This document shows positions 2 through 63,585 of a stretch of DNA of 64,000 bases, piece after piece (positions within the stretch are counted from its first letter, which is position 1; the number at the start of each line of letters is the position of its first letter). Location: the NCBI GenBank assembly GCA_964582645.1, contig CAZOTB010000007.1, positions 7,940-71,939 of the forward strand, written 5' to 3'. The DNA is from an uncultured Verrucomicrobiota bacterium (GTDB taxonomy: Bacteria; Verrucomicrobiota; Verrucomicrobiia; Palsa-1439; CAZOTB01). The notes under the pieces are model-generated. The model saw only the letters and a list, made by a program, of their open reading frames with translations, did no database searches and had not been told where the DNA came from. A program made the translations under genes and the position numbers.

Positions 2-65
2 AGAGCGCTTCAGCGCGCTCGTGAAGGGACTGTGGTTAATCTGCAAACCCGCGCTGAAGCGCTCT
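2..65. repeat. REPIN-like inverted repeat, family A (AGAGCGCTTCAGCGCG / CGCGCTGAAGCGCTCT)
   Basis: 16-bp perfect inverted arms at 2-17 and 50-65. The same arm sequence recurs between genes at 6101-6167. Confidence 0.75.
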
Positions 66-479
66 TCCACAACGAGCGGCCTCACACTGGTGGAAATGCT
101 CGTCGCCATCGCGGTGATGAGCGTGGTGATGAGCGCGGCTTATGTCACCATCCACCAAAGCATGAAGCTGCATCAAAGCGCGATGACCGACTCGAATCGC
201 GTGCTGGCACGGTGCAGTCTGGCGGAGGCGCTGGCCGCGGATTTCCGCCGGAGTCAGCAGGCGCAGATGATCGAGCCCGGCAAGTGCGCCGTGATTCGCG
301 CGGACGGCGCAGAAGTGGTGTACACGGTGCAAGCCAAGGCGGTGCTGCGGTCGGAGCACGCGTTGTCGCAGAGCGCCCGGACGTACGAGGTCGGCAGGGC
401 TCACCTGTGGCTTGGCGACGAACCGGGGGCGTCGCTGCGGATGAAGTTTTCCGACCAGGAGCTCGTGATCGCACGATGA
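21..479 (+). CDS. Prepilin-type N-terminal cleavage/methylation domain protein (GspJ/PilW-like pseudopilin); true start may lie upstream of the window
   Basis: G|LTLVEMLVAIAVMSVVM class III signal motif. Frame is open back to the window edge. Directly upstream of gspE/gspF homologues. Confidence 0.8.
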   Translation: MKGLWLICKPALKRSSTTSGLTLVEMLVAIAVMSVVMSAAYVTIHQSMKLHQSAMTDSNRVLARCSLAEALAADFRRSQQAQMIEPGKCAVIRADGAEVVYTVQAKAVLRSEHALSQSARTYEVGRAHLWLGDEPGASLRMKFSDQELVIAR

Positions 480-841
480 ACCGTCGCGGTGGCTATACCT
501 TGATCTTCACGCTCGGCGTGGTTGCGTTGCTCGCGGCCATGGGCGCGATGCTGGTGGGGCCGTCGCAGACGCAGCAGCGCACTCTGGAATTGCACTACCG
601 CAAGATGCAGGCCGATTACCTGAGCCTCGGCGGGCTCGAGCAGGCCAAAGAGTGGGCGGCGCAGGGCGTATTGACGAACGAGTTGTTCGTGTTGTCGAAC
701 GGCGTGGTGGACACCACGATGGAAGCGCTCGACGGCAAGCGGTGCCGCGTGGTCAGCATCGGACGGGTGCGCGTCGGATGGAAGAAGGACCAGATCACGG
801 CGCGGAACGAATTGATCGTGCCGCTGGGGCGGACGGATTAG
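476..841 (+). CDS. PilX/GspK-like minor pseudopilin
   Basis: ATGA overlap with the previous stop. MNRRGGYTLIFTLGVVALLAAMG is a PilX-type N-terminus. The 32..841 ORF call is an upstream read-through. Confidence 0.65.
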   Translation: MNRRGGYTLIFTLGVVALLAAMGAMLVGPSQTQQRTLELHYRKMQADYLSLGGLEQAKEWAAQGVLTNELFVLSNGVVDTTMEALDGKRCRVVSIGRVRVGWKKDQITARNELIVPLGRTD

Positions 842-862
842 GCATAGCAGAGGACGGATCGC

Positions 863-2602
863 ATGAAACCAGATGACAAAGGCGTGGTGGAAGTGCTCAG
901 GCACGCGCGATTGATCACCGAACAACAGCTTCAACGCGCCTACCAGGCGCAGGAGGAATCGGGGGAGTCGCTCAAGGACATTTTGTTCCGGGAGGTGTCA
1001 TGGGGCACGATCAAGAAATTCCTCAACTACGAGCTGCCGACGCCGTTCTCGGGCGAGAAGCGCGCGCTGGGCGCGGTGTTGCGCGAGGCCGAATGGATCA
1101 GCCAGGAGCAGTTTGACGAGGCGGAACGCGAGGCGCAACGCACGGGACTCGAGTTGGGTCAGCTCATGGTCGAACGAAAGCTGGTCACGAAGGAGCAACT
1201 TCAGGTTGCACTCAAGCAGCAAAAGGAAACCGGCCTGCCGCTGTGGCGGACCTTGATCAATCTTGGCTATGTGGACACGCACAAGGTCTCGCAGGTGCTC
1301 GGGTTGGCGACCGTCGCGCAGGAGAAGCCCGTCGCACCCGAGACAGTCGAGCCGCGCAAGGGCAAGAAGCCGACAGCCAAAGTCGAGGCGCAGACTCCCG
1401 CTTCCGCAGCGAAGTCGCTCCTCAACAAGCCCGATGCGTTCAAGAACATGTCGGGCGTGGACGTTGTCGCGGCCGTCATTGAGAGTGCGGTCAAGTCGCG
1501 GGCCACGGACATCCATCTCGATCCGCAGGAAGACCAGATGCGTGTGCGGTTCCGTATTGATGGCATGCTCTACGATGTCATTCAGTTGCCACTCAAGGTC
1601 GTGCCCGAGGTGATCTCCCGCTTCAAGGTGCTCGGCGGGATGGACATCACCCAGCACCGGCATTCGCAGGACGGACACTTCGTTCACGAGGTGGACGGCG
1701 CCGAGGTGGACCTGCGGTTGGCGACTGCGCCCACCGTGCTTGGCGAGAAGCTTGTGATCCGTATCCTGAGCGAGAAGAACGTGCTTACCGGCATCGCGCA
1801 GCTCGGTATGGAGCCGGCGCAGATTGACCTCATCGAACAACTCATCGCCAAGCCGTACGGGATGGTCTTGACGACCGGGCCGGTCGGTTCGGGCAAGACG
1901 ACGACGCTCTATGCGCTGCTCAACGAGGTCAACATCCTCACCAAGAACGTCATGACGATCGAGGACCCGGTCGAGTACCAATCCCGCGGCGTCAACCAGA
2001 TGCAGGTGGACGGCGCCTCGGGATTCGGGTTCGTGCAGGGTCTGCGCGCAATGTTGCGTCAGGACCCGAACATCATCATGGTCGGTGAAATCCGCGACGA
2101 AGAAACCGCGATGACTGCCGTGAAAGCCGCGATGACGGGTGTGCTGGTGTTGAGCACGCTGCACACGAACGACGCCCCGAGCGCCATCGGCTCGTTGATC
2201 GGATTGAACGTTCCGCGCTTTCTGATCTCGAGCGCCTTGATCGGCGTGGTGGCACAACGGCTCGTCCGCAAGATCTGTCCGCACTGCAGGCAGGAGTACG
2301 TCCCCCCGCCGAGTTTGCTCGAACAGCTCAGCGTGCCCGAGGAGCATCGGGGAAAAAAGTTCTATCGAGGTACGGGCTGCGACGCGTGTTTCAACACCGG
2401 TTATCTCGGACGGACCGGCGTCTATGAACTCATGAACGTGGACGAGGAACTCAAGGAAGCCATCCTGCACGGCGAAAGCCAGTCCGAGTTGCGTCGGCTT
2501 GCACTGAAGGGCGGCATGCAGTCGCTGGCCACGAGCACGCTGCACAAGGTCCTCGATGGAACTACCACGGCGGAGGAATATCTACGGGTGATTTTCACGT
2601 GA
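863..2602 (+). CDS. gspE: GspE/PilB family secretion/pilus assembly ATPase with N-terminal MshEN-like repeats
   Basis: ATDIHLDP, Walker A GPVGSGKTTTLY, TIEDPVEY, LRQDPNIIMVGEIRD, STLHTND, and tetra-Cys motif CPHC..GCDAC. Confidence 0.95.
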   Translation: MKPDDKGVVEVLRHARLITEQQLQRAYQAQEESGESLKDILFREVSWGTIKKFLNYELPTPFSGEKRALGAVLREAEWISQEQFDEAEREAQRTGLELGQLMVERKLVTKEQLQVALKQQKETGLPLWRTLINLGYVDTHKVSQVLGLATVAQEKPVAPETVEPRKGKKPTAKVEAQTPASAAKSLLNKPDAFKNMSGVDVVAAVIESAVKSRATDIHLDPQEDQMRVRFRIDGMLYDVIQLPLKVVPEVISRFKVLGGMDITQHRHSQDGHFVHEVDGAEVDLRLATAPTVLGEKLVIRILSEKNVLTGIAQLGMEPAQIDLIEQLIAKPYGMVLTTGPVGSGKTTTLYALLNEVNILTKNVMTIEDPVEYQSRGVNQMQVDGASGFGFVQGLRAMLRQDPNIIMVGEIRDEETAMTAVKAAMTGVLVLSTLHTNDAPSAIGSLIGLNVPRFLISSALIGVVAQRLVRKICPHCRQEYVPPPSLLEQLSVPEEHRGKKFYRGTGCDACFNTGYLGRTGVYELMNVDEELKEAILHGESQSELRRLALKGGMQSLATSTLHKVLDGTTTAEEYLRVIFT

Positions 2603-2605
2603 AGG

Positions 2606-2694
2606 GTTATCCGCTGTTCGGTATTGGTTCTTTGTGATGGGACGGATATTTCTCACGACCGGCCACTGAGAACCAATGACCGCTAACCGATGAC
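2606..2694. repeat. Heptamer-based palindromic repeat (TTGGTTC.. / ..GAACCAATGACC)
   Basis: Left TCGGTATTGGTTCTTTG and right GAGAACCAATGACCGCTAACCGATGAC are imperfectly complementary 7-bp-period tracts. Similar tracts at 20391-20468 and 63512-63585. Confidence 0.55.
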
Positions 2695-2706
2695 GAACCC
2701 CCGCCC

Positions 2707-3762
2707 ATGAAGAAGAAAAAAATCGCGACATCGTTCTACCGCCAACTCGCCATCTTGCTCGAAGCGGGCTTCCCGTTGATCCGCGCTCTCAACACTCTCG
2801 CGCAACGAAGCAGCAACCGCCGATTCCAGGGCATCCTCCGCAATTTTGTGGCTCAGGTCGAGCGCGGCACCACGTTCTCGGAAGCGCTCAGCCAGGCGTC
2901 CGACTATTTTCCGCCGTTGCAGGTTCAACTCGTCCGCGCGGGCGAAGGCAGCGGCAACCTGACGACCGTGCTCGATCGCCTCGCGGAGGGCGGCATGAAG
3001 GAGATCGCCATCCGCAACCGGCTGCGGACAAGTTTGGTGTACCCCTGCATGATTCTGGTGCTGGCGGTGGTGCTGATTGCGGTTCTCGTGGTGAAGATCG
3101 TTCCCACCTTCGCGCACCTCTTCGAGGAAGTCGGCGCTGCGGTGCCGCCACAGACGCAGTTCCTGATTGAGGTCAGCGATTTTGTTCGCTCGCGCGGATG
3201 GTACATGATTCCGATGGTCGTTGTGGGGCTTGTGCTGGCGTTGCGAGGACTGCTGGCCCTTCGGATCGTGCGGTTGTATCGCGATCACTTGAAACTCCGG
3301 TTCCGCGTTCTCGGTCCGCTCACCCGCGAATACGTCGTTGTTCACACCTGTCGCACGCTCGGGATGCTCTTGCACTCGGGGATTAATCTACTGCGCGCGC
3401 TCGATTTGACCAGCGACGCCTCCTCGAACCTGGTTGTGCAGGAGGGGCTGCGGCAGGCCCGGGAGGAAGTCGAACGGGGTCGTGGCCTCGAAGGGCCGTT
3501 GCGTCGCACCCGCATCCTGCCGCCCGACGTGGTGGACATGGTGGTGACGGCACAGGAAACGGGCGCATTGGCGGAGAACCTGATCTACGCCGCCGACATT
3601 TACGAAGAAGAACTCAACAACCGGATGAGCGTGGTTTCGAGTCTGACCGAACCTGCGCTCGTTCTGGTGGTGGGCTCGGTCGTCTTCTTCGTTGCGATCT
3701 CGTTGTTTCTTCCCTACATCAAGCTCCTCAGCGTGATGGGTGGGTCGCAGCTGGCGGAGTAG
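2707..3762 (+). CDS. gspF: Type II secretion system F family / PilC inner membrane platform protein
   Basis: FYRQLAILLEAGFPL, VRAGEGSGNL, two T2SSF repeats each followed by a TM helix, QETGAL, EPALVLVVG. Confidence 0.93.
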   Translation: MKKKKIATSFYRQLAILLEAGFPLIRALNTLAQRSSNRRFQGILRNFVAQVERGTTFSEALSQASDYFPPLQVQLVRAGEGSGNLTTVLDRLAEGGMKEIAIRNRLRTSLVYPCMILVLAVVLIAVLVVKIVPTFAHLFEEVGAAVPPQTQFLIEVSDFVRSRGWYMIPMVVVGLVLALRGLLALRIVRLYRDHLKLRFRVLGPLTREYVVVHTCRTLGMLLHSGINLLRALDLTSDASSNLVVQEGLRQAREEVERGRGLEGPLRRTRILPPDVVDMVVTAQETGALAENLIYAADIYEEELNNRMSVVSSLTEPALVLVVGSVVFFVAISLFLPYIKLLSVMGGSQLAE

Positions 3763-3804
3763 TACGGATCTCCCGACTGCCTGCGGAGATTCGCACGGGA
3801 CTAC
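3759..3804. repeat. Degenerate GTAG-type REP-like hairpin overlapping the gspF stop codon
   Basis: GTAGT...ATCTCC...GGAGAT...ACTAC pairing. The TAG of the GTAG tetranucleotide is the gspF stop. Confidence 0.35.
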
Positions 3805-3841
3805 GAGTCGTTCTCCGTTTCGAACGGAGGTTCGTCCGAAT

Positions 3842-4041: not shown

Positions 4042-6093
4042 ATGTCGCGCGCAGCCATGAACGACCCCGTCACCTACACCGTTGATTCCGAGGGCATCGG
4101 CTGGATCACGTTTGACGATCCGAACGCCAAGGCGAACGTCTTCAACCCGCACACCGTCGCCGGATTCCAGAAGGTTTTCAATGCTCTCGGAGGAGAGACC
4201 ACACTCAAGGCCGTTGTCATTCAGAGCGGCAAGGAGAATGTATTCATCGCCGGCGCCGACATCCGGCTCATCGAGACGATTGATTCAGCGGAAAAAGCGC
4301 TCGAACTGGTGCGCGAAGGACACAAGTTTATGGCGATGATCGCCAGCTTCAAAGTGCCCGTCATCGCCGCGATCCACGGCGCGTGCGCCGGGGGCGGTTG
4401 CGAGATGGCGCTCGCGTGCCACTACCGGATCGCCAGCGACAGTCCGAAGACGCAGATCGGCTTGCCCGAGGTTCAACTCGGCATCATCCCCGGATGGGGC
4501 GGTTGCGTGCGACTGCCCCGGCTCGTCGGTCTGCGAATCGCACTCGATTACATTCTCAAGGGCGACCTCAAACCCGCCGGGCTCGCGAGGAAGCATGGTT
4601 TGATGGACGAGGTCGTGCCGGAGGCGATTCTCAAAGAGTGCGCCCGGAAGTGGGCATGGAAGCTGGCGAAAGACGGTAAGCCGCAGCCGCCGTCTCATCT
4701 CGAAAACACCTGGCCGATGCGCGCCATCATTTGCTCCCAGGCGCGAAAGATGACGCTGGCCCGGACGCGCGGCAACTATCCTTCGCCGCTGAAGGCGATT
4801 GACGCCGTCGAGCAGGGGCTTGGACTTTCGATCGAGCAAGCCTGCGAGAACGAAGCGAAACGATTCTGCGAGGTGGCGCTCACTCCCGAGAGCAAGAACC
4901 TGATTCGCGTCTTCTTCCTGCGCGAGGAGAACCGGAAACTCACCGTGGATGGCTGGTTTCCCGGCGTAGCCGCAAGCGTGAGCGAGCGGCCACTCGCTGA
5001 CGCTCGCGGCTACATCCGTCGCGTCGGCGTCATCGGTGCCGGCGTGATGGGTTCCGGCATTGCGCATTGGTGCAGCACGCGGGGGTTCGACGTCCGCATC
5101 CGCGACGTGAAACCGGAGTTTGTCGCAAAGGGAATGCAAAGCATCAACAAGCTGTATCAGGAGAGCGTCCAGCGGCGAAAGCTCACCGCGCGCGAAGCCC
5201 AGCAAGGCATGGCGCGTGTGACGGCGACGACTGATTGGAGTGGATTCGCGAACTGCGATTTGATCATCGAGGCCGTGATCGAAGACATGAAGATCAAGAA
5301 ACCTGTCTTCGAGGAACTCTCACGGCTGGTGCGTCCCGACGCGATTCTCGCCACCAACACCTCCGCCATCCCGATCAACGAGATTGCATCGTGCGCCACG
5401 CATCCCGAGCGCGTCATCGGCATTCACTTCTTTAATCCCGTCAGCCGCATGCCGCTGGTGGAACTGATCCTCGGGCCGCAGACCGGTCGCGCTGCGGCGG
5501 AAATCTCGCTCTCGTTCGTGAAGACGCTCGGTAAACAAATTGTCATCTGCAAGGACTCCCCCGGCTTTCTCGTCAACCGCATCCTGCTGCCGTATCTGAA
5601 CACTGCCGGCCATTTGTTGATGGAAGGCAGCGACGTGCGGACGATTGACGACGCGCTGCTCGATTTCGGCATGCCGATGGGGCCGCTGCGGTTGATTGAC
5701 GAGGTGGGCGTGGATGTGAGCGATCACGTCGCGACCGAGCTGGCGCATTACTTCGGCGAGCGGATGAAGGTGGCCGACGTGCTCGTGAAGATGAACGAAG
5801 CGGGCTTGAAAGGTCGCAAGGGCGGCGCGGGATTCTACGTGTACGAAGGGAAGAAGGAGCGGGTGAACCCCGACCTCGGCAAGTACCTACCCGGCGGCGC
5901 GTCGCGTTCGCTCCCGAAGCAGGCCATCACCGACCGGCTGCTGGGCGTGATGATTGAGGAAGCGAAGCTGTGTCTCAAAGAAGGCGTTGTCCGCAGTGCC
6001 GACGAGGTGGACCTCGGCATGATCATGGGCACCGGTTTCCCGCCGTTTCGCGGTGGGCTGATGCGGTACGCACAGAGCATCGGCAAGGCGTGA
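4042..6093 (+). CDS. fadJ: Fatty acid oxidation complex alpha subunit (enoyl-CoA hydratase / 3-hydroxyacyl-CoA dehydrogenase)
   Basis: AIHGACAGGGCEMALAC, GLPEVQLGIIPGWGG, Rossmann GVIGAGVMGSGIA, HFFNP, PGFLVNRIL. Confidence 0.92.
   Translation: MSRAAMNDPVTYTVDSEGIGWITFDDPNAKANVFNPHTVAGFQKVFNALGGETTLKAVVIQSGKENVFIAGADIRLIETIDSAEKALELVREGHKFMAMIASFKVPVIAAIHGACAGGGCEMALACHYRIASDSPKTQIGLPEVQLGIIPGWGGCVRLPRLVGLRIALDYILKGDLKPAGLARKHGLMDEVVPEAILKECARKWAWKLAKDGKPQPPSHLENTWPMRAIICSQARKMTLARTRGNYPSPLKAIDAVEQGLGLSIEQACENEAKRFCEVALTPESKNLIRVFFLREENRKLTVDGWFPGVAASVSERPLADARGYIRRVGVIGAGVMGSGIAHWCSTRGFDVRIRDVKPEFVAKGMQSINKLYQESVQRRKLTAREAQQGMARVTATTDWSGFANCDLIIEAVIEDMKIKKPVFEELSRLVRPDAILATNTSAIPINEIASCATHPERVIGIHFFNPVSRMPLVELILGPQTGRAAAEISLSFVKTLGKQIVICKDSPGFLVNRILLPYLNTAGHLLMEGSDVRTIDDALLDFGMPMGPLRLIDEVGVDVSDHVATELAHYFGERMKVADVLVKMNEAGLKGRKGGAGFYVYEGKKERVNPDLGKYLPGGASRSLPKQAITDRLLGVMIEEAKLCLKEGVVRSADEVDLGMIMGTGFPPFRGGLMRYAQSIGKA
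4966..5013. repeat. In-frame REPIN-like palindrome, family B (GTAGCCGC..AGCGAG / CTCGCT..GCGGCTAC), inside fadJ
   Basis: 48 bp = 16 codons (VAASVSERPLADARGY). 21-bp arms with 2 mismatches. Arms are near-identical to the element at 19264-19333. Confidence 0.85.
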
Positions 6094-6100
6094 GTTCGTC

Positions 6101-6167
6101 GTAGAGCGCTTCAGCGCGGGCTTGGATGTTGCCCCGGCTGACTTTACGACCCGCTGAAGCGCTCTAC
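6101..6167. repeat. REPIN-like inverted repeat, family A, between convergent fadJ and metallothionein genes
   Basis: GTAGAGCGCTTCAGCGCGGG (6101-6120) and CCCGCTGAAGCGCTCTAC (6150-6167). GTAG ends; same family as 2-65. Confidence 0.8.
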
Positions 6168-6177: not shown

Positions 6178-6381
6178 TCACGGCTTGCAGCAGTCGTGAT
6201 CGCAGGCGCAGTCCTCGAACGTGCATTCGGTCAAACACGCCCGGCTGCAATAGAGCACGTTGCCTTTCCGCAATCCCTTGTCCAGGTCCACCATGCAGTT
6301 GCAGCTCGCGCAGGCGCATTTGATTCGATTGGAAGTCCGAGCGCGCGCGGCGGGGTTGGAAGACGACTTCTTCGCTTTCAT
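6178..6381 (-). CDS. smtA: Prokaryotic metallothionein (SmtA/BmtA family), 67 aa, 11 Cys
   Basis: KCACASCNCMVD..K....G..YCSRAC matches the SmtA pattern KCACxxCxCxVD...YCSxAC. RBS AAGGAG precedes the ATG at 6381. Confidence 0.85.
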   Translation of the reverse strand: MKAKKSSSNPAARARTSNRIKCACASCNCMVDLDKGLRKGNVLYCSRACLTECTFEDCACDHDCCKP

Positions 6382-6448
6382 GAGTCTCTCCTTTTTTCGT
6401 GATGCAAGAGAACATAGTCCACCCGACCGCGAAGGCAAATTCGGAGAG

Positions 6449-19263: not shown

Positions 19264-19333
19264 CGTAGCCGCGAGCGTAAGCGAGTGGCCCCGGCAACCA
19301 GGCGCTCTCCGCTCGCTTACGCTCGCGGCTACG
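19264..19333. repeat. REPIN-like inverted repeat, family B, between convergent PhyH and dnaE
   Basis: 22-bp perfect arms CGTAGCCGCGAGCGTAAGCGAG / CTCGCTTACGCTCGCGGCTACG. Contains the dnaE TAG stop (19329-19331). Confidence 0.9.
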
Positions 19334-22300
19334 CCGCCTTCTCCCGCGCGAAGCCACCGTTGAACTGCCGACGCTCGGGCTTGGGCATCGCGGTGTCGGC
19401 TTTGACGAACACCGTCTCCTCGCCGAGTAACGCCTCGATTTCGCGGATGAACTCCGCGGTGGGCGCGATGCAGAAATGCTGGTTCGTGTCGAGGAACACC
19501 AGCTCGCCGCTCGGGTACTCGATCACCAGGAGCACCGGCGTTCGTCCGCCATGCTTTTCGAGGACGGCACTCAACTCCTGCAACGTTGCCTCGGTTGTGT
19601 GCGCGGCCTGGAGGCGGACGTGGACCTGTTTGGTCTGCCGCACGCGCACTTCCTGGATCGGCAGGATTTCCTGTGCGGCGATCTTGGGCTTTTCATCGCG
19701 CGAATTCATGCTGCCGCACACGTACACGGCGGCGTCGGTCTGGAGATGCTTGCCGTACTTGGCGTAACAATCCGGGAAGGCCACGACCTCGATCGAGCCT
19801 TCCATGTCTTCCAGAATGAACGAGGCCATCGGCTTCTGCTCGGCCTTGGTGACTGTGTTCCGTAAGGCGGTGACAATCCCGCCCGCACGGACCATCTGCC
19901 GGTCGGTCAGTTCGAGCGCCTTCGAGGTGGGCGTGAGTTCGTAGCGTTCGAGGATGTCGCCATGCTGCGCCAACGGATGGCCGGTGACGTAGAATCCAAG
20001 CAGTTCTTTCTCGAACGCCAGCCGCTGGCTCGCCGGCCACTCGGGCACGTGGGGGGCCTTCGATGGCGGCGGCGCGGGTTCGGAGTCGAATGCGCCGAAC
20101 AACGACACCTGTCCGCGTGCTTTGTCCTGTTGCACGCTGGCCGCGCGGCCGAGCACGTGATCAATGGTCGCGGCCATTTGAGCGCGCGATTGCCCGAGCG
20201 AGTCGAACGCACCGCACTTGATGAGGCATTCCACGACTTTCCGGTTGCAGAGTCGCGTATCCACCCGCTCGGCGAAATCATACAGCGTCTTGAACCGCCC
20301 GGCCTTTGCGCGCGCATCGAGGATGGATTGCACGGCCATCTCGCCCACGCCTTTGATGGCGGCGAGGCCGAAGCGGATGGCGCGGAGCGCGTTATTAGTT
20401 GTTGGTAATTGGTTATGGGTCGAATTGGTCGTCGAGTCACCAGTGACCAATGACTGATTACCAGTAACTGCCGTTTCAACCGTGAATCGGATGCCGCTCG
20501 TGTTCACGTCCGGCGGCAGCACTTCAAGCCCCATCGCACGAGATTCGCGGATGAACAACGCGAGCTTGTCGGTGTTGCTCAGATCGTTCGACATCAACGC
20601 GGCCATGAACTCCACCGGATAATTCGCCTTGAGATAGGCGGTCTGATACGCAACGACCGCGTAGGCGGCAGCGTGCGATTTGTTGAATCCGTACCCGGCA
20701 AACTTTTCGAGCAGATCGAAGATCGCGTTGGCTTTCTCCCTGGGGATCTTGTTCTTCTCCCAGCAGCCCTTGAGGAACGTCTCCCGTTGCTTGGCCATCT
20801 CCTCGACCTTCTTTTTGCCCATCGCGCGACGCAGCAGGTCTGCTCCGCCGAGCGTGTAGCCCGCAAGCGCCTGGGCGGCCTGCATGACCTGCTCCTGGTA
20901 GATCATGATGCCGTAGGTCTCACGACAGATCGATTCGAGAAGCGGATGCTCGTACTCGATCTTTTTCCGACCGTGGCGCCGCTCGATGTAGTCGGGAATC
21001 AGGTCGATCGGCCCGGGACGGTAGAGCGCGATCAACGCGATGATGTGTTCGAGGCTGCTGATCTGGAATTTCCGGCACAGGTCGCGCATGCCACCGGACT
21101 CAAGCTGGAACAGGCCGATCGTGTTTGCCTTGTTGAGCAGGTCGTACGTCGGCGCGTCGTCGAGCGGAAGATTGTGGATGTCCACGTCCACGCCCTGCGT
21201 TTGCTTGACCAATTTGACCGTCTCGTCAATCACGGTGAACGTCTTCAACCCGAGGAAGTCCATCTTCAACAGGCCGAGGTCGCCGACCGGGTTCATCGCG
21301 TATTGCGTGACCAGGCCGCCGTTTTCATCCTTCTGGAGCGGGAGCAGTTCCACGAGCGGTTGCGCGCCGATCACGACCCCGGCGGCGTGTGTGCTCGCGT
21401 TGCGCGAGATGTCCTCGAGCACGAACGCGGTGTCAATCAGGTCCGTGACGGTCTGGTTGCTCCGGTATTCCTTCTGGAGCTCGGGGACCTGCTCGAGCGC
21501 CTTGTGGAGTGTGATCTTGGGATCGTTGGGAATCATCTTGGCGAGCCGGTCGGCCTCGCTGAAGCTCAGACCCATCACGCGCGCCACGTCGCGCACCACG
21601 GCTTTTGGCCCGAGCGTACCAAAGGTGATGATTTGCGCGACATTCGCTTCGCCATATTTCTTGCGCACGTACTCGATGACTTCGCCGCGTCGGTCGTCGG
21701 CAAGGTCAATGTCAATGTCGGGCGGGCTGATGCGTTCGGGATTCAGGAATCGCTCGAAGAGCAGGCCATACCGGAGCGGGTCCACAACGGAGATTTCCAG
21801 CAGATACGTCACGAGCGAGCCCGCTGCCGAGCCACGGCAACCCACCGCGATGCCGTTGCGTTTGGCGAAGCTGACGAAATCGGCGACGATCAGGAAGTAA
21901 CTGACGAACCCTTGTTTCTCGATGACTCTAAGTTCGTGCTCCATCTGCTCGACGACCTTGCGCTGGGACTCCGGGAGCGTTGATTTCCAATCAGCTATAT
22001 CAGCCAGCGTTGGGCCCAGACGAGCAGGGCAATGAGCGTGGGAGGCCGACTCCGTCGGGCGACCATGAGTTTCAGTTGTCTGATCGAGGTCGCCCGACGG
22101 AGTCGGCCTCCCACAGTCCCGGCCTGGCGTGGTACGATCCAAAATGCCTTCGGTCTCGATGCCATATCGCTTCTTGAGGCCGATGAGACACTGATGAATC
22201 AAGTAGCCTTCGCGCGAGAACCCGGTGGGCGGATCGAAGACGGGAAAACGCAGTTTCCCGAACTCGAGATTGAGGCTGCATTTCTCCGCGATGGCGATGG

Positions 22301-23215: not shown

Positions 23216-24688
23216 ATGAGCACAACAAATTACCAATCTTACAAGGGCATTCCATCCATCGCGGGCGTTTGCTCGATGGCCGATGCGATGAAGCCCGGGT
23301 TGTCGGTTGAGGAATGCGTGCGACGGCACAAACGCTACCACTGGGCGTTTCGACGGCTGCACGAGATTTTCACCGCGCGCATCCCCGCGGAGCCGATTTA
23401 TGAGTTGAAGATGGCGTTCAGTCTGCACGCGCATCTCTGCGCCGAACACACCGCCGCCCTCCGGAAACGCGTCGGCGAGATGCGCGAGCCGCCGCTTGGG
23501 TTGGAAGAATGTCCCGATGCAAACCTCGACGTCTTCTTTGACGAGATCCTCTGCGCTCCGACGACTGAGGAGCTAGTGCTCGGCCTGTACGAGAAGGCGG
23601 TACCGGCCTTGCAGGCCGGCCTCGAGCGACACCTCGCCGACACGAACCGATTGGCGGACCATCCGTCGGTGCGGGTGTGCCGATTCGCATTGATGGAACT
23701 GGCGGAAGTGGCCGACTTCGGGAGGAAAACGATCCAGTGCCTCGTGGATGCGAAGACGCGCCAGCGGGTCGCCGGCTGGCTGCAGTTGCTGGATGATTGT
23801 CTGGCTGCCGCCGGCGGGCTCGATGGTGTGGCGGCCGCCGTCCCCGGCGGCAATGGGCGCTCCGCCGCCGGGACGGCCGCCACCGCAACCCGCACGATTG
23901 TTCGCCAGCATTCCGCCACACCCTACAAGTTCGACGGCACGCCAAAGCGCGACGAACGTTTTCCCGACCCGTACAACATGGGGGTGAACGCGGAGACGTT
24001 CCTCTACACACCGGAGTTCTCGCCCCGGGCGAAAACGCTGATGATGTTCTACAAGCGCATCCGGGAGATTGACGTGCCCGAGATGATGGCCAGCATCCTC
24101 ACCGAGACCAAGGGCAAGCCGTGGGAGTACTACCGGGAAATGACACGCCAGCTTTGGGACGAAGCGCGGCACGGCATGATGGGGGAGGTGGGGTTTGTGG
24201 CGTCGGGAGTGGATTGGCGCAAGGTGATGATCAATTTCACCTGGTCGCTGGGTTTGAACACGCAACTCAAACCATGGGAGCGTCATGCGGTGCTCTATTT
24301 CATCGAACAAGGCCTGATGCCCAAAACGGGCAAGCGGTACGAATGGGAGACGGCGGTGGCCTCGCAGAACCCGCTCTCGGCGTTATTTCAGGACTACGAT
24401 TGGGCGGACGAGGTGTTGCACGCGCAGATCGGGCGGACGTGGTACGTGCCGGAGTTCAAGAGCACGCAGGAGGCGCTCAAGTACGGCGACGAATGCTGGT
24501 CGAAGGTGTTGAGCAACTGGCGCGGGTGGAAAGAGGCTGGGCTGACGCAGCATCGCAACTGGTGGCCGGATGTGTATCGCGACGCGTGCAAGGTCTGGGG
24601 CATCGAACCCGACCCGAAGGAGCTTGCATTCAACCAGACGTACGAAACGACGCGCGCCGACTTGAAGCAGATGACCGGCTCGGCGTGA
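23216..24688 (+). CDS. Ferritin-like (DUF455-like) protein, probable di-iron domain
   Basis: C-terminal half has EIDVPE, WDEARH and DWADEVLH (two D/ExxH motifs). N-terminal half is helical with HAHLCAEH. Confidence 0.7.
   Translation: MSTTNYQSYKGIPSIAGVCSMADAMKPGLSVEECVRRHKRYHWAFRRLHEIFTARIPAEPIYELKMAFSLHAHLCAEHTAALRKRVGEMREPPLGLEECPDANLDVFFDEILCAPTTEELVLGLYEKAVPALQAGLERHLADTNRLADHPSVRVCRFALMELAEVADFGRKTIQCLVDAKTRQRVAGWLQLLDDCLAAAGGLDGVAAAVPGGNGRSAAGTAATATRTIVRQHSATPYKFDGTPKRDERFPDPYNMGVNAETFLYTPEFSPRAKTLMMFYKRIREIDVPEMMASILTETKGKPWEYYREMTRQLWDEARHGMMGEVGFVASGVDWRKVMINFTWSLGLNTQLKPWERHAVLYFIEQGLMPKTGKRYEWETAVASQNPLSALFQDYDWADEVLHAQIGRTWYVPEFKSTQEALKYGDECWSKVLSNWRGWKEAGLTQHRNWWPDVYRDACKVWGIEPDPKELAFNQTYETTRADLKQMTGSA
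23828..23883. repeat. GTGG-type REPIN-like palindrome, family D, in frame inside the ferritin-like gene
   Basis: GTGGCGGCCGCCGTCCCCGGCGGC ... GCCGCCGGGACGGCCGCCAC encodes VAAAVPGGNGRSAAGTAAT in the inter-domain linker. Confidence 0.65.
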
Positions 24689-34628: not shown

Positions 34629-34762
34629 TTCGGCCACGCAATGTCCTGCCACGCTCCACGCGAAGCAACACAAATATGGTGAGGATGGTGTGTTGCCTGC
34701 GGGGTTGCAGTCGCCCGTTCGCACAGCAACCGGGCGCATCTGCCGGTTGTTGGTACTCCGAC

Positions 34763-34828
34763 AAGCTGAAGCTTGAACTCCAAACGCAAGCTTCGAGAGG
34801 GTTTCGTTGGGAGTTCAAGCTTCCGCTT
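34763..34828. repeat. Intergenic inverted repeat (AAGCTTGAACTCC / GGAGTTCAAGCTT)
   Basis: AAGCTGAAGCTTGAACTCCAAACG ... CGTTGGGAGTTCAAGCTTCCGCTT with a 13-bp perfect core. Confidence 0.7.
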
Positions 34829-34908
34829 GTTTCAGCACATTTCGTCGGGGACACTCCAACCAACAACTTCGGCATGCGCCCACCGCAACCACGCATCGAT
34901 TCTAGCTC

Positions 34909-35659: not shown

Positions 35660-36265
35660 ATGCCGTGGTTCAAGAAAAAGCGGAGTCCGATTGACCAGCG
35701 GATCGAGGAGTTGAACCAAGAACTCGCCTCGCTCGAAGCAGAGCAGCGCCGGCAGGCTGAGGAGACCGAGCGTCGCAAAGCCGCTGCGAGCGCGGCCACA
35801 CCCGCGCCTGGCCAGGAGAACGGTCAGGAGCAACCGGGCGAGCGCCCGGCTTTGCCGTTTCGGGAGACCCGCAAGCCGCGGATCCGCACCACGGTCAATC
35901 CCGGCGGCACGGCGTCGGTGCACGGTATCGAACCGCACGAGTTTGACTTTTTCGCCCGCCGCGACAGGCCCGTGGACTTCAGCGAGCCCGGGCACGTCGC
36001 GGGCGCGAAACCGAAGGACGACAAGAAGCCCGTGGGCCCGCACGGCACTCACGCAGGGCCGGGTCTGTGGGAGGCGTTGCTGAGTCTGTTCAACGCCCCG
36101 AAGCCCCGCCAGGAGCAGGAGAAGTTCGCGAGCTTCCTGACAACTGGCAGCTTCCAGCGGCTCAAACCGCTCAAGTACGAGCGTCGCATCGCGCGCAACC
36201 GGTTCATCGCCGTTGCGGTCATTGTGCTGGCGATTGCATTTCTGCTGGTCAAATGCATCCGATGA
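35660..36265 (+). CDS. Hypothetical protein: N-terminal coiled coil, low-complexity linker, C-terminal TM
   Basis: IDQRIEELNQELASLEAEQ. Conserved-looking FLTTGSFQRLKPLKYERRIARNRFI, followed by a TM helix. Confidence 0.7.
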   Translation: MPWFKKKRSPIDQRIEELNQELASLEAEQRRQAEETERRKAAASAATPAPGQENGQEQPGERPALPFRETRKPRIRTTVNPGGTASVHGIEPHEFDFFARRDRPVDFSEPGHVAGAKPKDDKKPVGPHGTHAGPGLWEALLSLFNAPKPRQEQEKFASFLTTGSFQRLKPLKYERRIARNRFIAVAVIVLAIAFLLVKCIR

Positions 36266-36801
36266 CGGCCGGCGTCCCAACCGTGGCGGGAACATTCCGA
36301 GCCGAGTTCCGAGAGGGGAAGCTCGCGGCATTGCATTTCCCGAGTTCACCCCATGTGGGAGGCGCCTCCGTGCGCCGACCGGACCGGACCGAAGATGCCG
36401 ACCCTTCTATCGGCGAACTCCGCGCCCAGCTTGCTGCGTACTTCCGAGGACGACGGAGGAAGTTTTCGTTCCCGCTCGATCTGAGCGCGGGCACGGCGTT
36501 CCAACGCCGGGTCTGGCGTGCAATGCAACGCATCCCATTTGGCACGACGAAGTCCTACGGCGAAATCGCCTGCGAGATCGGTTCGCCGCAAGGTGCGCGC
36601 GCCGTGGGAATGGCCTGCGGCAAGAACCCGGTCCCGATTCTCGTGCCCTGCCATCGCGTCGTGGCCTCCGGAGGCAAGCTCGGTGGGTTCTCCGCCGGGC
36701 GACATTGGAAGAATCGATTGCTCGCGCTTGAGGGGGTTCGGTACGGAACAAACCCAGAGGCATCGCACGGTCGCGCACTTACGGCGTCGCACCACGCTTG
36801 A
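36262..36801 (+). CDS. ogt: Methylated-DNA--protein-cysteine methyltransferase
   Basis: GTAFQRRVW, IPFGTTKSYGEIA, ARAVGMACGKNP, active site PCHRVV. ATGA overlap with the upstream gene. Confidence 0.92.
   Translation: MTAGVPTVAGTFRAEFREGKLAALHFPSSPHVGGASVRRPDRTEDADPSIGELRAQLAAYFRGRRRKFSFPLDLSAGTAFQRRVWRAMQRIPFGTTKSYGEIACEIGSPQGARAVGMACGKNPVPILVPCHRVVASGGKLGGFSAGRHWKNRLLALEGVRYGTNPEASHGRALTASHHA
36355..36379 (+). repeat. Single family-C REP-like arm in frame inside ogt
   Basis: GTGGGAGGCGCCTCCGTGCGCCGAC has a GTGGGA lead, a hairpin with a CTCCGT centre, and a GAC tail, like the dnaE arms. Confidence 0.5.
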
Positions 36802-61700: not shown

Positions 61701-62139
61701 CGGCGTCTTGGGGAGCATCTTTGCCGCGGGGTACGACATCGGCGCAGACCTGATGATCGGCACCGCCGACGACTTGCTGGCGTCTGTGATTACTTCAATC
61801 AATAAGATCATGATCGAGGGACGTTTCATTCAGTCCAACCTGGTCGCGGGCGTCAACCCGGTGGATGGCATCTTCGGCAATTCCAATGATACACCCGCCG
61901 TGGTCGGCAGTTCGCTCGGTATCGTCAGCCTGGGAGGCGTGGTGGACCCCGAGGAAGAACCCGGCATGGGCGGCCTCATCGCGGAAAGCCCCCTCATGGA
62001 CCGCAACTACTTGATCGGGGCGGATCTGATTGGCGACTTCCTCGTCGGAGGCGAAACTCAGTTCAGCGCACTGCCAGGGTACCTCGACAACGAAGGCACG
62101 TTAAACACGGTTGACGACGTCAACGTCCGCGTGCTCTAG
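55726..62139 (+). CDS. Giant extracellular beta-strand-repeat protein with LEPR-XLL motif and an inserted choice-of-anchor-L-like domain
   Basis: GGAG RBS. WNIEALEERLLLS, FVEADGDKV, GILLTSG..FVFASEEFAEFVNSPFNDIF..YDGLTPVL..FAVADVSD..WDSGVFI (~59780-60510), and F.AGYDIG blocks. Confidence 0.88.
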   Translation: MKEAATIEPLRASAARQLHRLWNIEALEERLLLSGADVFGVRKVKFVEADGDKVKLSISGKDNMDVVFDRDLANHIVGIDTITLHGTDASSQLNFSLKPAKGGGSDLTTFVGSILSGNASQSLRGINATGAALSSVDLTGSLTGNLTTNRDLGDVTVAGTLNSVVIQNARDLTGDLTAANIGKVTATGGDLLGSITATNGITSVQARNMAGNLTAGTTLGRLTLSGDLSGDVAFGRDTLELLISGSVTSSASITGNAGSGVANINAGSFARLGVIGNFAGTIMTDGSVGLGVGGALLDTATVRAGTDNDVAGNLEVKALSIAADLAASGNVSFAMTNGGFSGTITAGQDVFGNGVNSGIVIRGGDFTGAIFAGLNPNNNMVQPGGDVAAMTFLPTAAGFNGTIVASGTANAITAGFFGSNTSISAATIGDLFANRSIAGDAIAAGALFTATTGSIGTVTAKAVSGVGIAGTFVAAQNIGNINATSTGIGSGHHAISEASFTATAGTIGTIVAGAKAGSGINDSSFTAETGIGNIAGSSQTGHGFRASMDGANIFAVLDGSLGDISGVSILGDGIHGSTFTASENIGNVNGSSASGSGIGDPTGAVGTFFNAGGSISSLKGTATGGGAGAGGDGMVHVTAAAGENEGGLGFGSIQGSSQFGSGIVGSRFSAQGSIALIVGTTNNTNPTVDEDGINTTVFRTASDIQEVTATTGVTGGAGVGSAIEESLFSAAGNIATPEEPVMAPTQVKAPGPLVDSIRIDNDIPLGTLGHWDVDVNTGGESNSAQLTASRLASGDIVTEDVLFDYYSYVDTGNNGGGFQLSSGADPTQVGSDPDKVQSTGSFTGANGNTINYTVTSSIANGDSVMYSTFTFTAQSGTLGVFRFMQYLDEDIEGVSDDVLYVTGSAANNDLQLFTFDNDEVYGVSHSGSLSTAQGLVNAAFAGWAADEYNDMKPQITGSGQSASLGGVIDLTDLPAFTHPTLGAVNGPADIVSVLAWDVDPNATTATIITTLGGVPTPPTPEPPPIPTGDCEGHGSDLPIVISVTGDIRDSQFLAGYDIGADMSFDGTSNDASEFAALQPSVLGSIRVTGDWINSFAASGISSADGQLGNGDDTLSAPGSAIGNILLTSNIAGDVNNPGSPPLRNFQSDSIGTLAANAIGIDPNSGSAAATIGVFTNFANGTVGSIGDIIAETRTQAQAIGDGSEFHAGTSIACISAVNTNTSLNLLNAIGSATFEAGTSIGNITAQVDNGPFAAAIQFASFIAHDNAADTELAIGNIEASNDFSDLAAIDGVLFDASSPTVVGTPLHIGTIRTDGDISDSSFLATGNIANGTIFEGEICVTTTSPGPLQITETTDENALVNRLFGGMIPAGITIDDITLVAPGDPDIAGSSSVGLYEGFPSLPLGSIAQLPDGILLTSGLARNALGPNNTGSETTDLDAAGDSDLDGLDPGDDTTDASSLSITFTTDGSVASFSALFVFASEEFAEFVNSPFNDIFAVFLDGVNISNDPNGNILNVNNNFFLLNNTDENPPTDFNGDDITGTTLVDITDIQYDGLTPVLRVSTPGTLTPGQHTLKFAVADVSDHLWDSGVFISALCPSSEPGGGGTNLPMPSQIGIEVEGDIGNSQFIADFDNNGTGSIAAIGGIHVLVREGMAGSMTGGGHMGILFRDGDVFSAGGNDPVSGLAIGNIQVDGSDIFDAAGNPILWAVDGATFVADTIPDLNIGTITTTAGSIGTTKSYISSFTATGDIRDLNIASGITTGSTFLADSDADNAGDIFDITAGGIVNATVSGNNVAVSGGITVVSSIDMFTVTATTGDIGDLNVSQDEDNSSGIGVHNSTFSAAVNIGNIAIKYTKPPAPQEDPDSMFTPLGSTLSDTQFLAAQVDPTGKIGTVTVENIIAENDSEQMNGNTFYAGTGGIGDILILSVGQGEGMIATSFRTTGANDDDQHGDIGNITVATGSEDAVVDSIISSIGNIGDGEGNENGFNIELSGGVLGSIFAAGYDIGADLMIGTADDLLASVITSINKIMIEGRFIQSNLVAGVNPVDGIFGNSNDTPAVVGSSLGIVSLGGVVDPEEEPGMGGLIAESPLMDRNYLIGADLIGDFLVGGETQFSALPGYLDNEGTLNTVDDVNVRVL

Positions 62140-62154
62140 CCGGTACCGACTTCC

Positions 62155-63510
62155 ATGGCTGGTTTGCTCAAGCCCGAAGTGTTTCGGGATTACTTCACTT
62201 TCCTGAAGTTCCCAAGCGTCTCCACCCAGCCGCAACGGAAACGCGACGTTGCCGCCTGCGCCATCTGGTTGCGGGATCATCTCCGCTCGATCGGGCTCAA
62301 GGCGACGCTGTACCCGACTCGCGGCCACCCCGTCCTCGTCGCCTCGACCAGCCAACGCCCACAACCCCGTCGGCCTGCGCTTCTGATTTACGGCCACTAT
62401 GACGTCCAGCCACCGGAGCCGCTTGAGCTGTGGAAGACACCACCGTTCGAGCCGACGATCCGCAAGGGGCAGGTGTACGCACGGGGCGCCATGGACAACA
62501 AGGGACAGATCTGGTGTCACATCAAGGGGGTTGAATCGCTGCTGCGCGAGCGACGCGAGTTGCCGGTGGATGTGGTGTTCCTCATCGAAGGAGAAGAGGA
62601 AATCGGAAGCCAGAATCTCGCGCCGTTCGTTCGGGCGCACCGCCGCGAACTGCGTGCCGATGGTTGCGTGATTTCCGACTCGAGCATGTTTGGCCCGAAC
62701 CAGCCCGCGATCAGTTACGGCCTGCGCGGGATTGTCTGTCTGGAGCTTCGCGTGTACGGGCCGTCCCACGATCTGCACTCGGGAATGTTTGGTGGCACCT
62801 TGACCAATCCTGCCGTCGCGCTTGCTCGTGTCCTCGGCGAGATGATTGACGCGAAGGGCCGCATTGCCATCCCCGGCTTCTACGACGATGTGCGCCCTCT
62901 CCCGGCATCGGAACGGCGTCAACTGGCACGTCTGCCGTTCCGCGAATCCGCCTATCGCAAGATGCTCGGAGTGCCCGCCCTCGCGGGAGAGTTCGGCTAC
63001 AGCCTCAACGAACGTCGCTGGGCGCGTCCCACGTTCGACATCAATGGCATTTTCGGCGGCTACCAGGGCGAGGGAAGCAAGACGGTCATTCCTTGTTGGG
63101 CGGGCGCGAAGTTCAGTTTGCGACTCGTGCCCGACCAGAAACCCGACCGGGTAATTCGACTGCTGCGTGCGCATCTGAAACGGGTGCTCCCCGGCTCCGT
63201 CCGCTGGAAGTTGATCGCCCACGAATTGGGCGCCGAACCGTATCTCGTCTCTCCGCGCGGTCGTTTCGTGCAGGCGGCCGCCCGCGCCATCGAGAAGGGG
63301 TTCGGTCGCAAACCGTTGTTCATCCGCGAAGGCGGTTCGATTCCCATCGTCACCACGATCAAGAAGGAACTCGGTCTCGACACAATTCTGATCGGCTTGG
63401 GACTGCCCGACGACGGCGCCCATTCCCCCAACGAACACTTCGGTCTGGATCGCCTGCGCAAAGGCATTTTGACCTCGCGTCATCTCCTGATAGAGTTGGC
63501 GAAGAAGTAG
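62155..63510 (+). CDS. M20/M25/M40 family dipeptidase
   Basis: LIYGHYDVQPP, YARGAMDNKGQ, EGEEEIGS, DLHSG, GGSIP, HSPNEHF. Confidence 0.93.
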   Translation: MAGLLKPEVFRDYFTFLKFPSVSTQPQRKRDVAACAIWLRDHLRSIGLKATLYPTRGHPVLVASTSQRPQPRRPALLIYGHYDVQPPEPLELWKTPPFEPTIRKGQVYARGAMDNKGQIWCHIKGVESLLRERRELPVDVVFLIEGEEEIGSQNLAPFVRAHRRELRADGCVISDSSMFGPNQPAISYGLRGIVCLELRVYGPSHDLHSGMFGGTLTNPAVALARVLGEMIDAKGRIAIPGFYDDVRPLPASERRQLARLPFRESAYRKMLGVPALAGEFGYSLNERRWARPTFDINGIFGGYQGEGSKTVIPCWAGAKFSLRLVPDQKPDRVIRLLRAHLKRVLPGSVRWKLIAHELGAEPYLVSPRGRFVQAAARAIEKGFGRKPLFIREGGSIPIVTTIKKELGLDTILIGLGLPDDGAHSPNEHFGLDRLRKGILTSRHLLIELAKK

Positions 63511-63511
63511 G

Positions 63512-63585
63512 GTTTGGTTATTGGTTCTTCGCGAGAGGCTGACGCTGGCTGTGCATCTGCCCCTTGACAACCAATAATCGAGAAC
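63512..63585. repeat. Heptamer palindromic repeat (TTTGGTTATTGGTTCTT / ACAACCAATAATCGAGAAC)
   Basis: Same style as 2606-2694 and 20391-20468; lies right after the dipeptidase stop. Confidence 0.55.

What the first reader, a model, noticed from the sequence alone, without database searches (positions are those of the whole stretch)
2..63585. Window-wide invasion of protein-coding genes by several palindromic REP-like families
At least four GTAG/GTGG-capped palindrome families and one heptamer family appear in intergenic positions and/or in frame inside genes. In-gene sites are FadJ (4966-5013), DnaE (22038-22114 and 20391-20468), the ferritin-like protein (23828-23883), Ogt (36355-36379) and the prepilin leader (2-65). 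Families A, B and the heptamer family have both coding and intergenic copies in this window. Seen: the arms, their frame preservation and the repeated copies. Established: REP/REPINs begin with GTAG/GTGG-type tetranucleotides, are normally extragenic and are mobilised by RAYT transposases; in-frame coding palindromes are a known rarity (Rickettsia RPE). Inferred: this lineage tolerates repeat insertion into linkers and loops of conserved, even essential, proteins, creating new peptide segments. I am not aware of a description of this in PVC bacteria, but cannot confirm that.
Basis: partly seen in the sequence, partly recalled or inferred. Interest (0 to 1): 0.8.

Follow-up and report, generated by a model that had tools for sequence, protein, structure and literature searches.

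The report
REP palindromes inserted inside Verrucomicrobial genes
Short mobile palindromic DNA repeats (REP/REPIN type) really do sit in frame inside several genes of this Verrucomicrobial genome piece, including the replicative DNA polymerase, but the same behaviour was already described for the verrucomicrobium Opitutus terrae in 2013, so this is a new example of a known phenomenon.

Summary
The window (62% GC, Verrucomicrobiota) carries GTAG/GTGG-headed palindromes of at least four families, plus a looser 'heptamer' inverted-repeat family. Arms recur far above chance. Family B occurs in more than 111 loci of Verrucomicrobiota MAGs, and family C in 12 metagenome loci, both as single arms and as inverted doublets.

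In-frame coding copies are well supported at three sites. In DnaE site 1, a perfect 27-nt-arm doublet adds 26 codons that the 84%- and 77%-identical orthologues lack. In FadJ, 16 codons form the only low-confidence segment of the AlphaFold model. In a 490-aa helical protein, the insert lies in the disordered linker between two bundles. Three sites are weaker: DnaE site 2, the Ogt single arm and the pseudopilin leader.

RAYT-like HUH transposase genes flanked by such repeats exist in related genomes: L055 for family B, and L126 for another family. None lies in the window.

This is not new. Di Nocera et al. [quoted passage not shown]

The verdict is a new member of a known kind, of modest interest. 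One side observation stands out: a near-identical strain carries a TAG stop inside the dnaE insert.

The parts
2..65 (.). Family A inverted doublet, with its left arm cut by the window edge. The spacer and right arm overlap the predicted 5' end of a pseudopilin-like ORF (21-479, N_methyl motif).
6101..6167 (.). Family A inverted doublet (GTAGAGCGCTTCAGCG arms). It is intergenic, 7 nt after the fadJ stop, and absent at the same site in the sister loci L126 and L127.
4966..5013 (+). Family B doublet in frame in FadJ. It spans 16 codons (VAASVSERPLADARGY) in the linker between the hydratase and dehydrogenase domains.
19264..19333 (.). Family B doublet between convergent genes. Its right GTAG head supplies the TAG stop codon of dnaE (19329-19331, minus strand).
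22038..22114 (-). Family C doublet (REPIN-like, 27-nt perfect arms, 23-nt spacer) in frame in DnaE. It lies between the PHP domain and the polymerase core and encodes about CGRPTPSGDLDQTTETHGRPTESASH.
20391..20468 (-). 'Heptamer' inverted-repeat element in frame in DnaE, in a hypervariable loop just before the helix-hairpin-helix domain. The hairpin is strong only on the + strand, through G.U pairs.
2604..2690 (.). Intergenic 'heptamer' element between the T2SS-E and T2SS-F genes. It shares the inverted GGTNATTGGT core.
63511..63585 (.). Intergenic 'heptamer' element directly after the stop of the M20 peptidase gene.
23828..23883 (+). GTGG-headed imperfect palindrome in frame in a 490-aa helical (weakly ferritin/Dps-like) protein. 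It encodes VAAAVPGGNGRSAAGTAAT and is single-copy in the data searched.
36355..36380 (+). Single arm of a family C-related repeat ('family D', GTGGGAGGCGCCTCCGTGCGCCGACC) in frame in the N-terminal domain of Ogt (VGGASVRRP).
36050..36075 (+). Possible remnant, 23/26 identical to the flank plus head of the dnaE family C copy. It lies inside ORF 35660-36265 and is unresolved.
   Evidence: (I17)

Best explanation
These are REP/REPIN-type non-autonomous mobile elements: short GTAG/GTGG-headed hairpin repeats that occur as single units and as inverted doublets.

In this class, a single-copy HUH tyrosine transposase (RAYT) recognises the folded single-stranded hairpin and moves it. This is established knowledge for the class, not shown here.

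Most copies land or survive between genes, typically just after stop codons. A minority survive inside genes when three conditions hold:
- the inserted length keeps the reading frame;
- the frame read contains no stop codon;
- the site is a surface loop or an interdomain linker.

The insert is then translated as a short, probably disordered peptide with little effect on the protein. Over time, such inserts decay into ordinary linker sequence.

Shown here:
- the repeats and their copies elsewhere;
- the open frames;
- their absence from close orthologues;
- their loop/linker positions;
- RAYT-like genes flanked by such repeats in related genomes.

Inferred:
- mobilisation by a RAYT in the source genome;
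- translation of the inserts;
- neutrality of the inserts.
For: Arms recur in the window far above chance.

Family B:
- These loci hold 45 inverted pairs and 76 single arms.

Family C:
- Its arm occurs in 12 metagenome loci, as single arms and doublets.
- Three of these loci come from the same metagenome as the closest relative.

DnaE:
- The closest orthologues lack both inserts.
- Removing 26 codons leaves a linker like that of P0002.

FadJ:
- The insert sits in the interdomain linker.
- The only segment with pLDDT below 50 is residues 308-318.
- L127 retains a decayed arm.

The 490-aa protein:
- The insert is absent from homologues.
- It is the only internal low-pLDDT segment.

Other genomes:
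- 8 of 104 evaluable family B copies lie inside Pfam-confirmed genes, and a ninth (L035) sits in an open ORF with no Pfam match.
- The confirmed hosts are a DUF3516 helicase, peptidase U32, HrpA, GcvP, YjeF and a methyltransferase-glycosyltransferase fusion.
- A family C arm lies in UvrA, read in the same frame as in DnaE (GRPTPSGD).

RAYT-like genes:
- L055 carries a RAYT-like ORF flanked on both sides by family B dimers. It matches NF047646 at E=1.4e-8 and has an HUH motif PDHIHLV.
- L126 carries a Y1_Tnp ORF flanked by another doublet family.

Independent assemblies give the same sequence.

Literature precedent in O. terrae.
Against: - No RAYT gene lies in the 64-kb window.
- No RAYT was linked to families A, C or D.
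- The L055 match is below NCBIfam's curated cut-off (34.7 against 80 bits).
- Genome-wide copy numbers in the source organism are unknown.
- Family A was not found elsewhere; its one viral-contig hit is at chance level.
- The 23828-23883 palindrome is single-copy.
- The heptamer family lacks a GTAG head and is only loosely conserved.
- There is no proteomic evidence that the inserts are translated.
Confidence: 0.82

Rival explanations
1. The in-gene palindromes evolved locally as functional nucleic-acid structures, and they only resemble REPs. Possible roles would be mRNA hairpins that pause translation, sites for RNases, or origins of recombination.
For: The hairpins are very stable as RNA: -72.7 kcal/mol in dnaE and -40.2 in fadJ. 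The dnaE site 2 element folds well only on one strand, through G.U pairs. The 23828-23883 palindrome has no other copy.
Against: Identical arms occur at unrelated intergenic and genic sites in the window and in many other genomes. The close orthologues of DnaE lack the inserts entirely. The strand that folds best at dnaE site 2 is antisense to the mRNA.
Confidence: 0.07
2. The palindromes inside genes are metagenome assembly artefacts, in which repeats have been collapsed or mis-joined into coding sequence.
For: Contigs tend to end near these repeats. L001 ends about 170 nt beyond the family B copy. Several loci from the genome scan end at an arm.
Against: Three independent assemblies give the same sequence through the dnaE and fadJ inserts: JGI 3300037501, Logan SRR12687342 and Logan SRR12686701. 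Frames stay open and the flanks align perfectly with orthologues.
Confidence: 0.03
3. The inserts disable or split their host genes, so the genes are pseudogenes or two-piece genes. Intact function would then be supplied elsewhere, for example by a second dnaE.
For: A 99.98%-identical contig carries a TAG stop inside the dnaE insert. There the gene is called as 350 aa plus 871 aa, and the 871-aa product is recorded on two contigs.
Against: In the window and in L130 the dnaE ORF is uninterrupted over 1257 codons, and all Pfam domains are intact. Conservation on both sides of each insert is high.
Confidence: 0.06

Closest known systems
GTAG-type REPs of Opitutus terrae PB90-1, families GTAG-17 to GTAG-20 (Di Nocera, De Gregorio & Rocco 2013, BMC Genomics 14:522, PMC3733652)
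   Same: Both are from the same phylum. Both have GTAG heads, with a GTGG variant in one family, and several families coexisting in one genome. Both occur as single units and as head-to-head or tail-to-tail dimers, mostly just downstream of genes. Both include many in-frame intragenic copies encoding about 8-30 residues, often in DNA replication and repair genes and in helicases such as uvrA and HrpA. The paper makes the same argument that inserts sit in flexible linkers or loops.
   Different: The peptide strings encoded by family B (VAASVSE, SRERERV, LAHARGY) do not occur in the paper's supplementary list of intragenic REPs. The examples seen there, such as VGPALAAG, differ. Here the arms are longer (21-27 nt), and a full doublet lies in the replicative dnaE itself. 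In that paper, the dnaE case is Rickettsia conorii.
REPIN-RAYT systems (Bertels & Rainey 2011, PMC3116915; RAREFAN preprint 10.1101/2022.05.22.493013)
   Same: Both involve inverted doublets of REP units that form long hairpins, together with immobile singlets. In both, a single-copy HUH tyrosine transposase gene is flanked by the repeats, as seen here in L055 and L126.
   Different: REPINs are described as essentially extragenic. Here the cognate RAYT is not identified in the source genome. Family B is shared almost unchanged across many genera, which is broader than the usual lineage-specific pattern.
Rickettsia palindromic elements (RPE; Ogata et al. 2000, from my own knowledge; mentioned in PMC3733652)
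   Same: Both are palindromic repeats inserted in frame into protein-coding genes, including dnaE, and tolerated in surface-exposed segments.
   Different: The sequences and the host clade are unrelated. RPE-1 is longer (about 100-150 bp). No RAYT association is known for the CGTC-type Rickettsia repeats.
Bacterial MITEs inserted in frame (reviewed in PMC10969869)
   Same: Both are small non-autonomous inverted-repeat elements that occasionally extend or interrupt ORFs.
   Different: Classical MITEs have terminal inverted repeats and target-site duplications and derive from DDE-type IS elements. The elements here are hairpin units with GTAG heads.

Membership tests
GTAG-type REP / REPIN | Conserved GTAG (or GTGG/GTRG) tetranucleotide at the outer end of each unit | tested here: met
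   Families A and B begin with GTAG. Families C and D and the 23828 palindrome begin with GTGG. The heptamer family has no such head.
GTAG-type REP / REPIN | Palindromic units able to form a stable hairpin, occurring as singlets and as inverted doublets | tested here: met
   Fold z-scores range from -5 to -12.8. Family B shows 45 pairs and 76 singles. Family C shows singles and doublets.
GTAG-type REP / REPIN | Tens to hundreds of dispersed copies within one genome | tested here: inconclusive
   Only 64 kb of the source genome is available, holding 2 copies each of families A and B and 1-3 of families C/D. Family B gave 10 or more loci in single MAGs, for example JACRKC01. The source genome itself was not in the scanned collections.
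GTAG-type REP / REPIN | Predominantly extragenic, close to the 3' ends of genes | tested here: met
   About 91% of evaluable family B copies in other genomes are not inside open coding frames. In the window, the copies at 6101, 19264, 2604 and 63511 lie 0-7 nt from stop codons.
REPIN-RAYT system | A cognate RAYT (HUH Y1 transposase) gene flanked by the same repeats | tested here: inconclusive
   This is met in a related genome for family B: L055 ORF 1854-2404 is flanked by family B dimers and matches NF047646 at E=1.4e-8, below the curated cut-off. It is also met for another family in the sister genome L126 (PF01797, 28.3 bits). No Y1 gene lies in the window. Families A, C and D were not linked to any.
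REPIN-RAYT system | Demonstrated mobility (cleavage or transposition by the RAYT) | not testable with these tools
   Only presence/absence between sister genomes is available.
Rickettsia palindromic elements (RPE) | Sequence homology to the RPE-1 to RPE-8 consensus sequences | not tested
   No RPE sequences were available. The host clade and the heads differ (GTAG against CGTC), so membership is not claimed and only the behaviour is compared.

The most novel reading that the evidence does not exclude
The REPIN-derived linker in dnaE has become a natural breakpoint. In a near-identical strain (3 differences in 12.9 kb), a TAG codon inside the insert divides DnaE into a 350-aa PHP-domain piece and an 871-aa polymerase piece, and this call is recorded on two contigs. 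If that allele is real and is the only dnaE in the genome, there are two possibilities. Either the replicative polymerase works as two polypeptides, or the stop is read through. A selfish repeat would then have created a split essential enzyme.
Probability: 0.06. Interest if true: 0.75.

Novelty: new member of a known kind. Interest (0 to 1): 0.33.

Why it matters
This work adds uncultured Verrucomicrobiota lineages, new repeat families and a full doublet inside the replicative polymerase to the known catalogue of intragenic REPs. It also shows three further things:
- One family (B) is shared almost unchanged across many Opitutaceae genomes.
- Some insertions sit at the same site in orthologues from different genomes: the DUF3516 helicase, peptidase U32 and the FadJ linker. 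REP-derived peptides can therefore persist and decay into ordinary linkers.
- These repeats break assemblies and gene calls. Contigs end at them, and dnaE is called in two pieces, which matters for MAG annotation.

It does not change the general picture established in 2013.

Tried and rejected
- BLAST of the heptamer element and the 23828 palindrome against the window and against 758 kb of fetched loci found no further copies. The heptamer relatives were recovered only with a short core pattern.
- Tandem Repeats Finder did not report the heptamer periodicity.
- All-against-all clustering of ORFs near family B hits found no recurrent transposase. The L055 RAYT was found by looking between same-orientation arm pairs.
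- tblastn with both RAYT-like proteins found no homologue in the window or in other loci.
- The metagenome scan did not contain the source sample, so it could not give within-genome counts.
- The contig of P0002 has no DNA on file.
- Look-ups of FadJ did not extend beyond the window start, so the left end of the first family A copy and the pseudopilin start stay unresolved.
- The viral-contig scan for family A gave one unpaired 18-mer at chance level, and none for family D.
- Rfam and tRNA scans found nothing.
- Synteny with the sister contig L125 does not extend beyond dnaE, so the 490-aa protein could be compared only with homologues of about 52-54% identity.
- I ran no further search on Ogt or on the pseudopilin.


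Full report
**What is in the window**

The window is 62% GC. The best matches of its DnaE and FadJ are Verrucomicrobiota proteins.

- Family A (arm GTAGAGCGCTTCAGCGCG) lies at 2-65 and 6101-6167.
- Family B (arm GTAGCCGCGAGCGTAAGCGAG) lies at 4966-5013 and 19264-19333.
- Family C (arm GTGGGAGGCCGACTCCGTCGGGCGACC) forms a perfect 27-nt-arm doublet at 22038-22114.
- A related single arm ('family D') lies at 36355-36380.
- A GTGG-headed imperfect palindrome lies at 23828-23883.

Arm counts exceed shuffled expectation: 3 against 0.12 for family A, 4 against 0 for family B, and 2 against 0 for family C.

As single-stranded DNA the elements fold far better than shuffles. The z-scores are -12.8 for family C, -7.4 and -5.0 for family B, -5.7 for family A, and -3.3 for the 23828 palindrome.

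The 'heptamer' element at 20391-20468 is weaker.
- BLAST found no relatives.
- Two intergenic elements (2604-2690 and 63511-63585) share with it an inverted GGTNATTGGT/ACCAATNACC core about 40 nt apart. That is 3 exact matches against 0.27 expected.
- Its hairpin is significant only on the + strand, antisense to dnaE, because all arm mismatches are G.U-compatible there. The RNA z-score is -4.0 on that strand against -1.95 on the other.

**Are the in-gene copies really in genes?**

Pfam identifies the following host genes:
- FadJ, with hydratase plus 3-hydroxyacyl-CoA dehydrogenase domains.
- DnaE, 1257 aa, with all five domains.
- Ogt, with its start at GTG 36283.
- A pseudopilin with an N-methylation motif.

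Each host ORF is uninterrupted.

*DnaE.* The closest orthologues, P0001 (84% identical) and P0002 (77%), lack both inserts.
- Taking 26 codons out of site 1 leaves PGRD-AHCPARLG, close to P0002's PRPEKDGQPACLG.
- Site 1 lies between the PHP domain and the polymerase core. Site 2 lies in a loop just before the helix-hairpin-helix domain, where Thermus aquaticus Pol III alpha has only about 4 residues.
- Both sites are hypervariable in all Verrucomicrobiota DnaE sequences aligned.

*FadJ.* The 16 repeat-encoded codons sit immediately before the Rossmann strand.
- The linker is 7 residues longer than in the 77-80%-identical orthologues.
- A 70%-identical orthologue (L127) still carries a recognisable right arm, matching at 19 of 24 nt. 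The insertion is therefore probably old and is decaying elsewhere.
- In an AlphaFold model with mean pLDDT 88.6, the only segment below 50 is residues 308-318. This falls inside the repeat peptide at residues 304-319.

*The 490-aa protein.*
- The segment VAAAVPGGNGRSAAG is absent from homologues of about 52-54% identity.
- It coincides with the only internal low-confidence segment, residues 209-224, between two helical bundles.
- The fold is weakly Dps/ferritin-like, with Foldseek E of 0.07 or higher.

*Ogt.*
- The single arm adds no net length relative to M. tuberculosis OGT.
- It is nevertheless a true repeat copy. AATGTGGGAGGCGCCTCCGCGCGCCGAT lies in an intergenic region downstream of dnaE in the sister contig (L125 13846-13875).

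*The pseudopilin.* Translation of the repeat depends on GTG 21 being the start. This is the only canonical start upstream of the cleavage motif within the window, and I could not verify it.

**Are these dispersed repeat families?**

It gave 111 loci, nearly all from Opitutaceae, Opitutus and other Verrucomicrobiota MAGs. These contain 45 inverted pairs and 76 single arms.

Nine of the 104 evaluable copies lie in frames that are open for 240 nt or more on both sides, with coding-like GC3. Eight of these are in Pfam-confirmed genes:
- a DUF3516 helicase, at the same site in two genomes;
- peptidase U32, at the same site in two genomes;
- HrpA;
- GcvP;
- the YjeF epimerase/dehydratase;
- a methyltransferase-glycosyltransferase fusion.

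The forward arm is stop-free in two of three frames, and the reverse arm in all three. Open frames are therefore not surprising in themselves. The roughly 9% genic share, against a coding density near 90%, shows strong selection against genic copies.

The family C arm occurs in 12 metagenome loci, as singles and as doublets.
- Three of these loci come from the metagenome (Ga0187892) that also holds the closest relative, whose dnaE lacks the insert.
- One copy lies in frame in a UvrA gene and is read as GRPTPSGD, the same frame as in DnaE.

Families A and E, the heptamer family and the 23828 palindrome were not found in the other fetched loci.

**Transposase link**

No Y1/HUH gene lies in the window.

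In the sister contig L126 (FadJ 79% identical), a 230-aa ORF matches PF01797 above threshold (28.3 bits). It shows an HUH motif (NHVHVV). It is flanked on both sides by doublets of another family, CCGAGCCGCGACCGTGAGGGAGCGGAAT, and a third doublet lies 1.4 kb away.

In an Opitutus MAG (L055), a 183-aa ORF lies between two tail-to-tail family B dimers.
- It carries the motifs PDHIHLV and YLFDNAVRAEL.
- It covers almost the whole NCBIfam REP-associated tyrosine transposase model.
- The match is E = 1.4e-8 at 34.7 bits, below the curated 80-bit cut-off.

This is the arrangement that defines a REP-transposase unit. It ties family B to a RAYT-like gene, but in another genome.

**Artefact check**

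A Logan assembly (L130, 8.8 kb) is 100% identical to the window through the dnaE insert. Two further Logan contigs encode the identical FadJ.

The JGI contig L001 differs at 3 of 12,852 positions. One difference (window 22052, C to A) breaks the otherwise perfect palindrome and turns GAG into TAG in dnaE. The gene is therefore called as 350 aa plus 871 aa, and the 871-aa product is on record for two contigs.

**Comparison with what is known**

Di Nocera, De Gregorio and Rocco (2013, PMC3733652) sorted prokaryotic REPs into GTAG and CGTC superfamilies. They reported the following:
[quoted passage not shown] Their supplementary table mentions O. terrae 70 times, which suggests a list of that order.
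- Many intragenic REPs lie in replication and repair genes, including both uvrA genes, the ligase gene and helicases such as HrpA.
- Rickettsia conorii dnaE carries a REP at residues 853-861.
- Such inserts probably sit in flexible linkers or loops.

The phenomenon, the phylum and the interpretation are therefore already published. What is new here is limited to four points:
- different families in uncultured lineages;
- a full doublet in the replicative dnaE of a verrucomicrobium;
- evidence that family B is shared across many genera and retained at orthologous sites;
- the nonsense allele.

**Verdict**

The novelty class is a new member of a known kind, and the interest is modest.

Noticed in passing
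window 22052 (L001 about 9910; L129): A JGI contig 99.98% identical to the window has a single substitution in one arm of the dnaE doublet. It creates an in-frame TAG, so dnaE is called as 350 aa plus 871 aa. The 871-aa product is recorded on two contigs. A Logan assembly has the intact allele.
   Followed up: partly
window 19329-19331 (minus strand): The stop codon of dnaE is the TAG of the GTAG head of the family B doublet. The sister genome ends the same C-terminus (REKAA) with TGA and has different palindromes downstream.
   Followed up: yes
L055 1780-2472: In an Opitutus MAG, a RAYT-like ORF (HUH motif; sub-threshold match to NF047646) is flanked on both sides by tail-to-tail family B dimers, directly downstream of gcvP. 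A run of N masks 10 nt of the gene.
   Followed up: yes
L126 5700-6490 and 7834-7909: The sister genome has a Y1_Tnp ORF flanked by doublets of a further family (CCGAGCCGCGACCGTGAGGGAGCGGAAT). This family is absent from the window. A third doublet lies nearby.
   Followed up: yes
L024 4263-4318, L038 820-843, L078 3-70; L032 2146 and L074 1251: Family B copies sit at the same position of orthologous genes (DUF3516 helicase; peptidase U32) in different MAGs. This suggests long retention or a hot spot.
   Followed up: partly
L035 about 4560-4660: Three tandem family B arms are read as repeated SRERERVEGG units inside a 1324-aa open frame with no Pfam match. Its coding status is unclear.
   Followed up: no
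window 36050-36075: A 26-nt stretch inside ORF 35660-36265 is 23/26 identical to the upstream flank plus GTGGGAGGC head of the dnaE family C copy. It may be a remnant or a chance match.
   Followed up: partly
window 34761-34830: A 70-nt palindrome without a GTAG head (ACAAGCTGAAGCTTGAACTCC...) lies between divergently oriented genes. Its fold z-score is -5.8, and no other copy was found.
   Followed up: partly
window 41315-62139: Four consecutive very large ORFs (1465, 1277, 2046 and 2137 aa) are rich in Gly/Asn/Thr repeats, and three of them carry FG-GAP repeats. They account for most of the direct-repeat families reported by the repeat finder.
   Followed up: partly
window 63674-63797: A tandem array with a 21/42-nt unit (about TGCAAACGTCTCTCCCCGTCG) lies near the window end, at about 3-4 copies and 70-80% matches.
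   Followed up: no
window 6178-6400 (minus strand): A small Cys-rich ORF lies downstream of fadJ. Its identical copy in L131/L132 is called as a 67-aa product with a precomputed PF02069 (prokaryotic metallothionein) hit, but my own Pfam scan of the longer 74-aa frame found nothing. The gene order fadJ, metallothionein-like gene, AraC regulator, PhyH dioxygenase is conserved in L127.
   Followed up: partly
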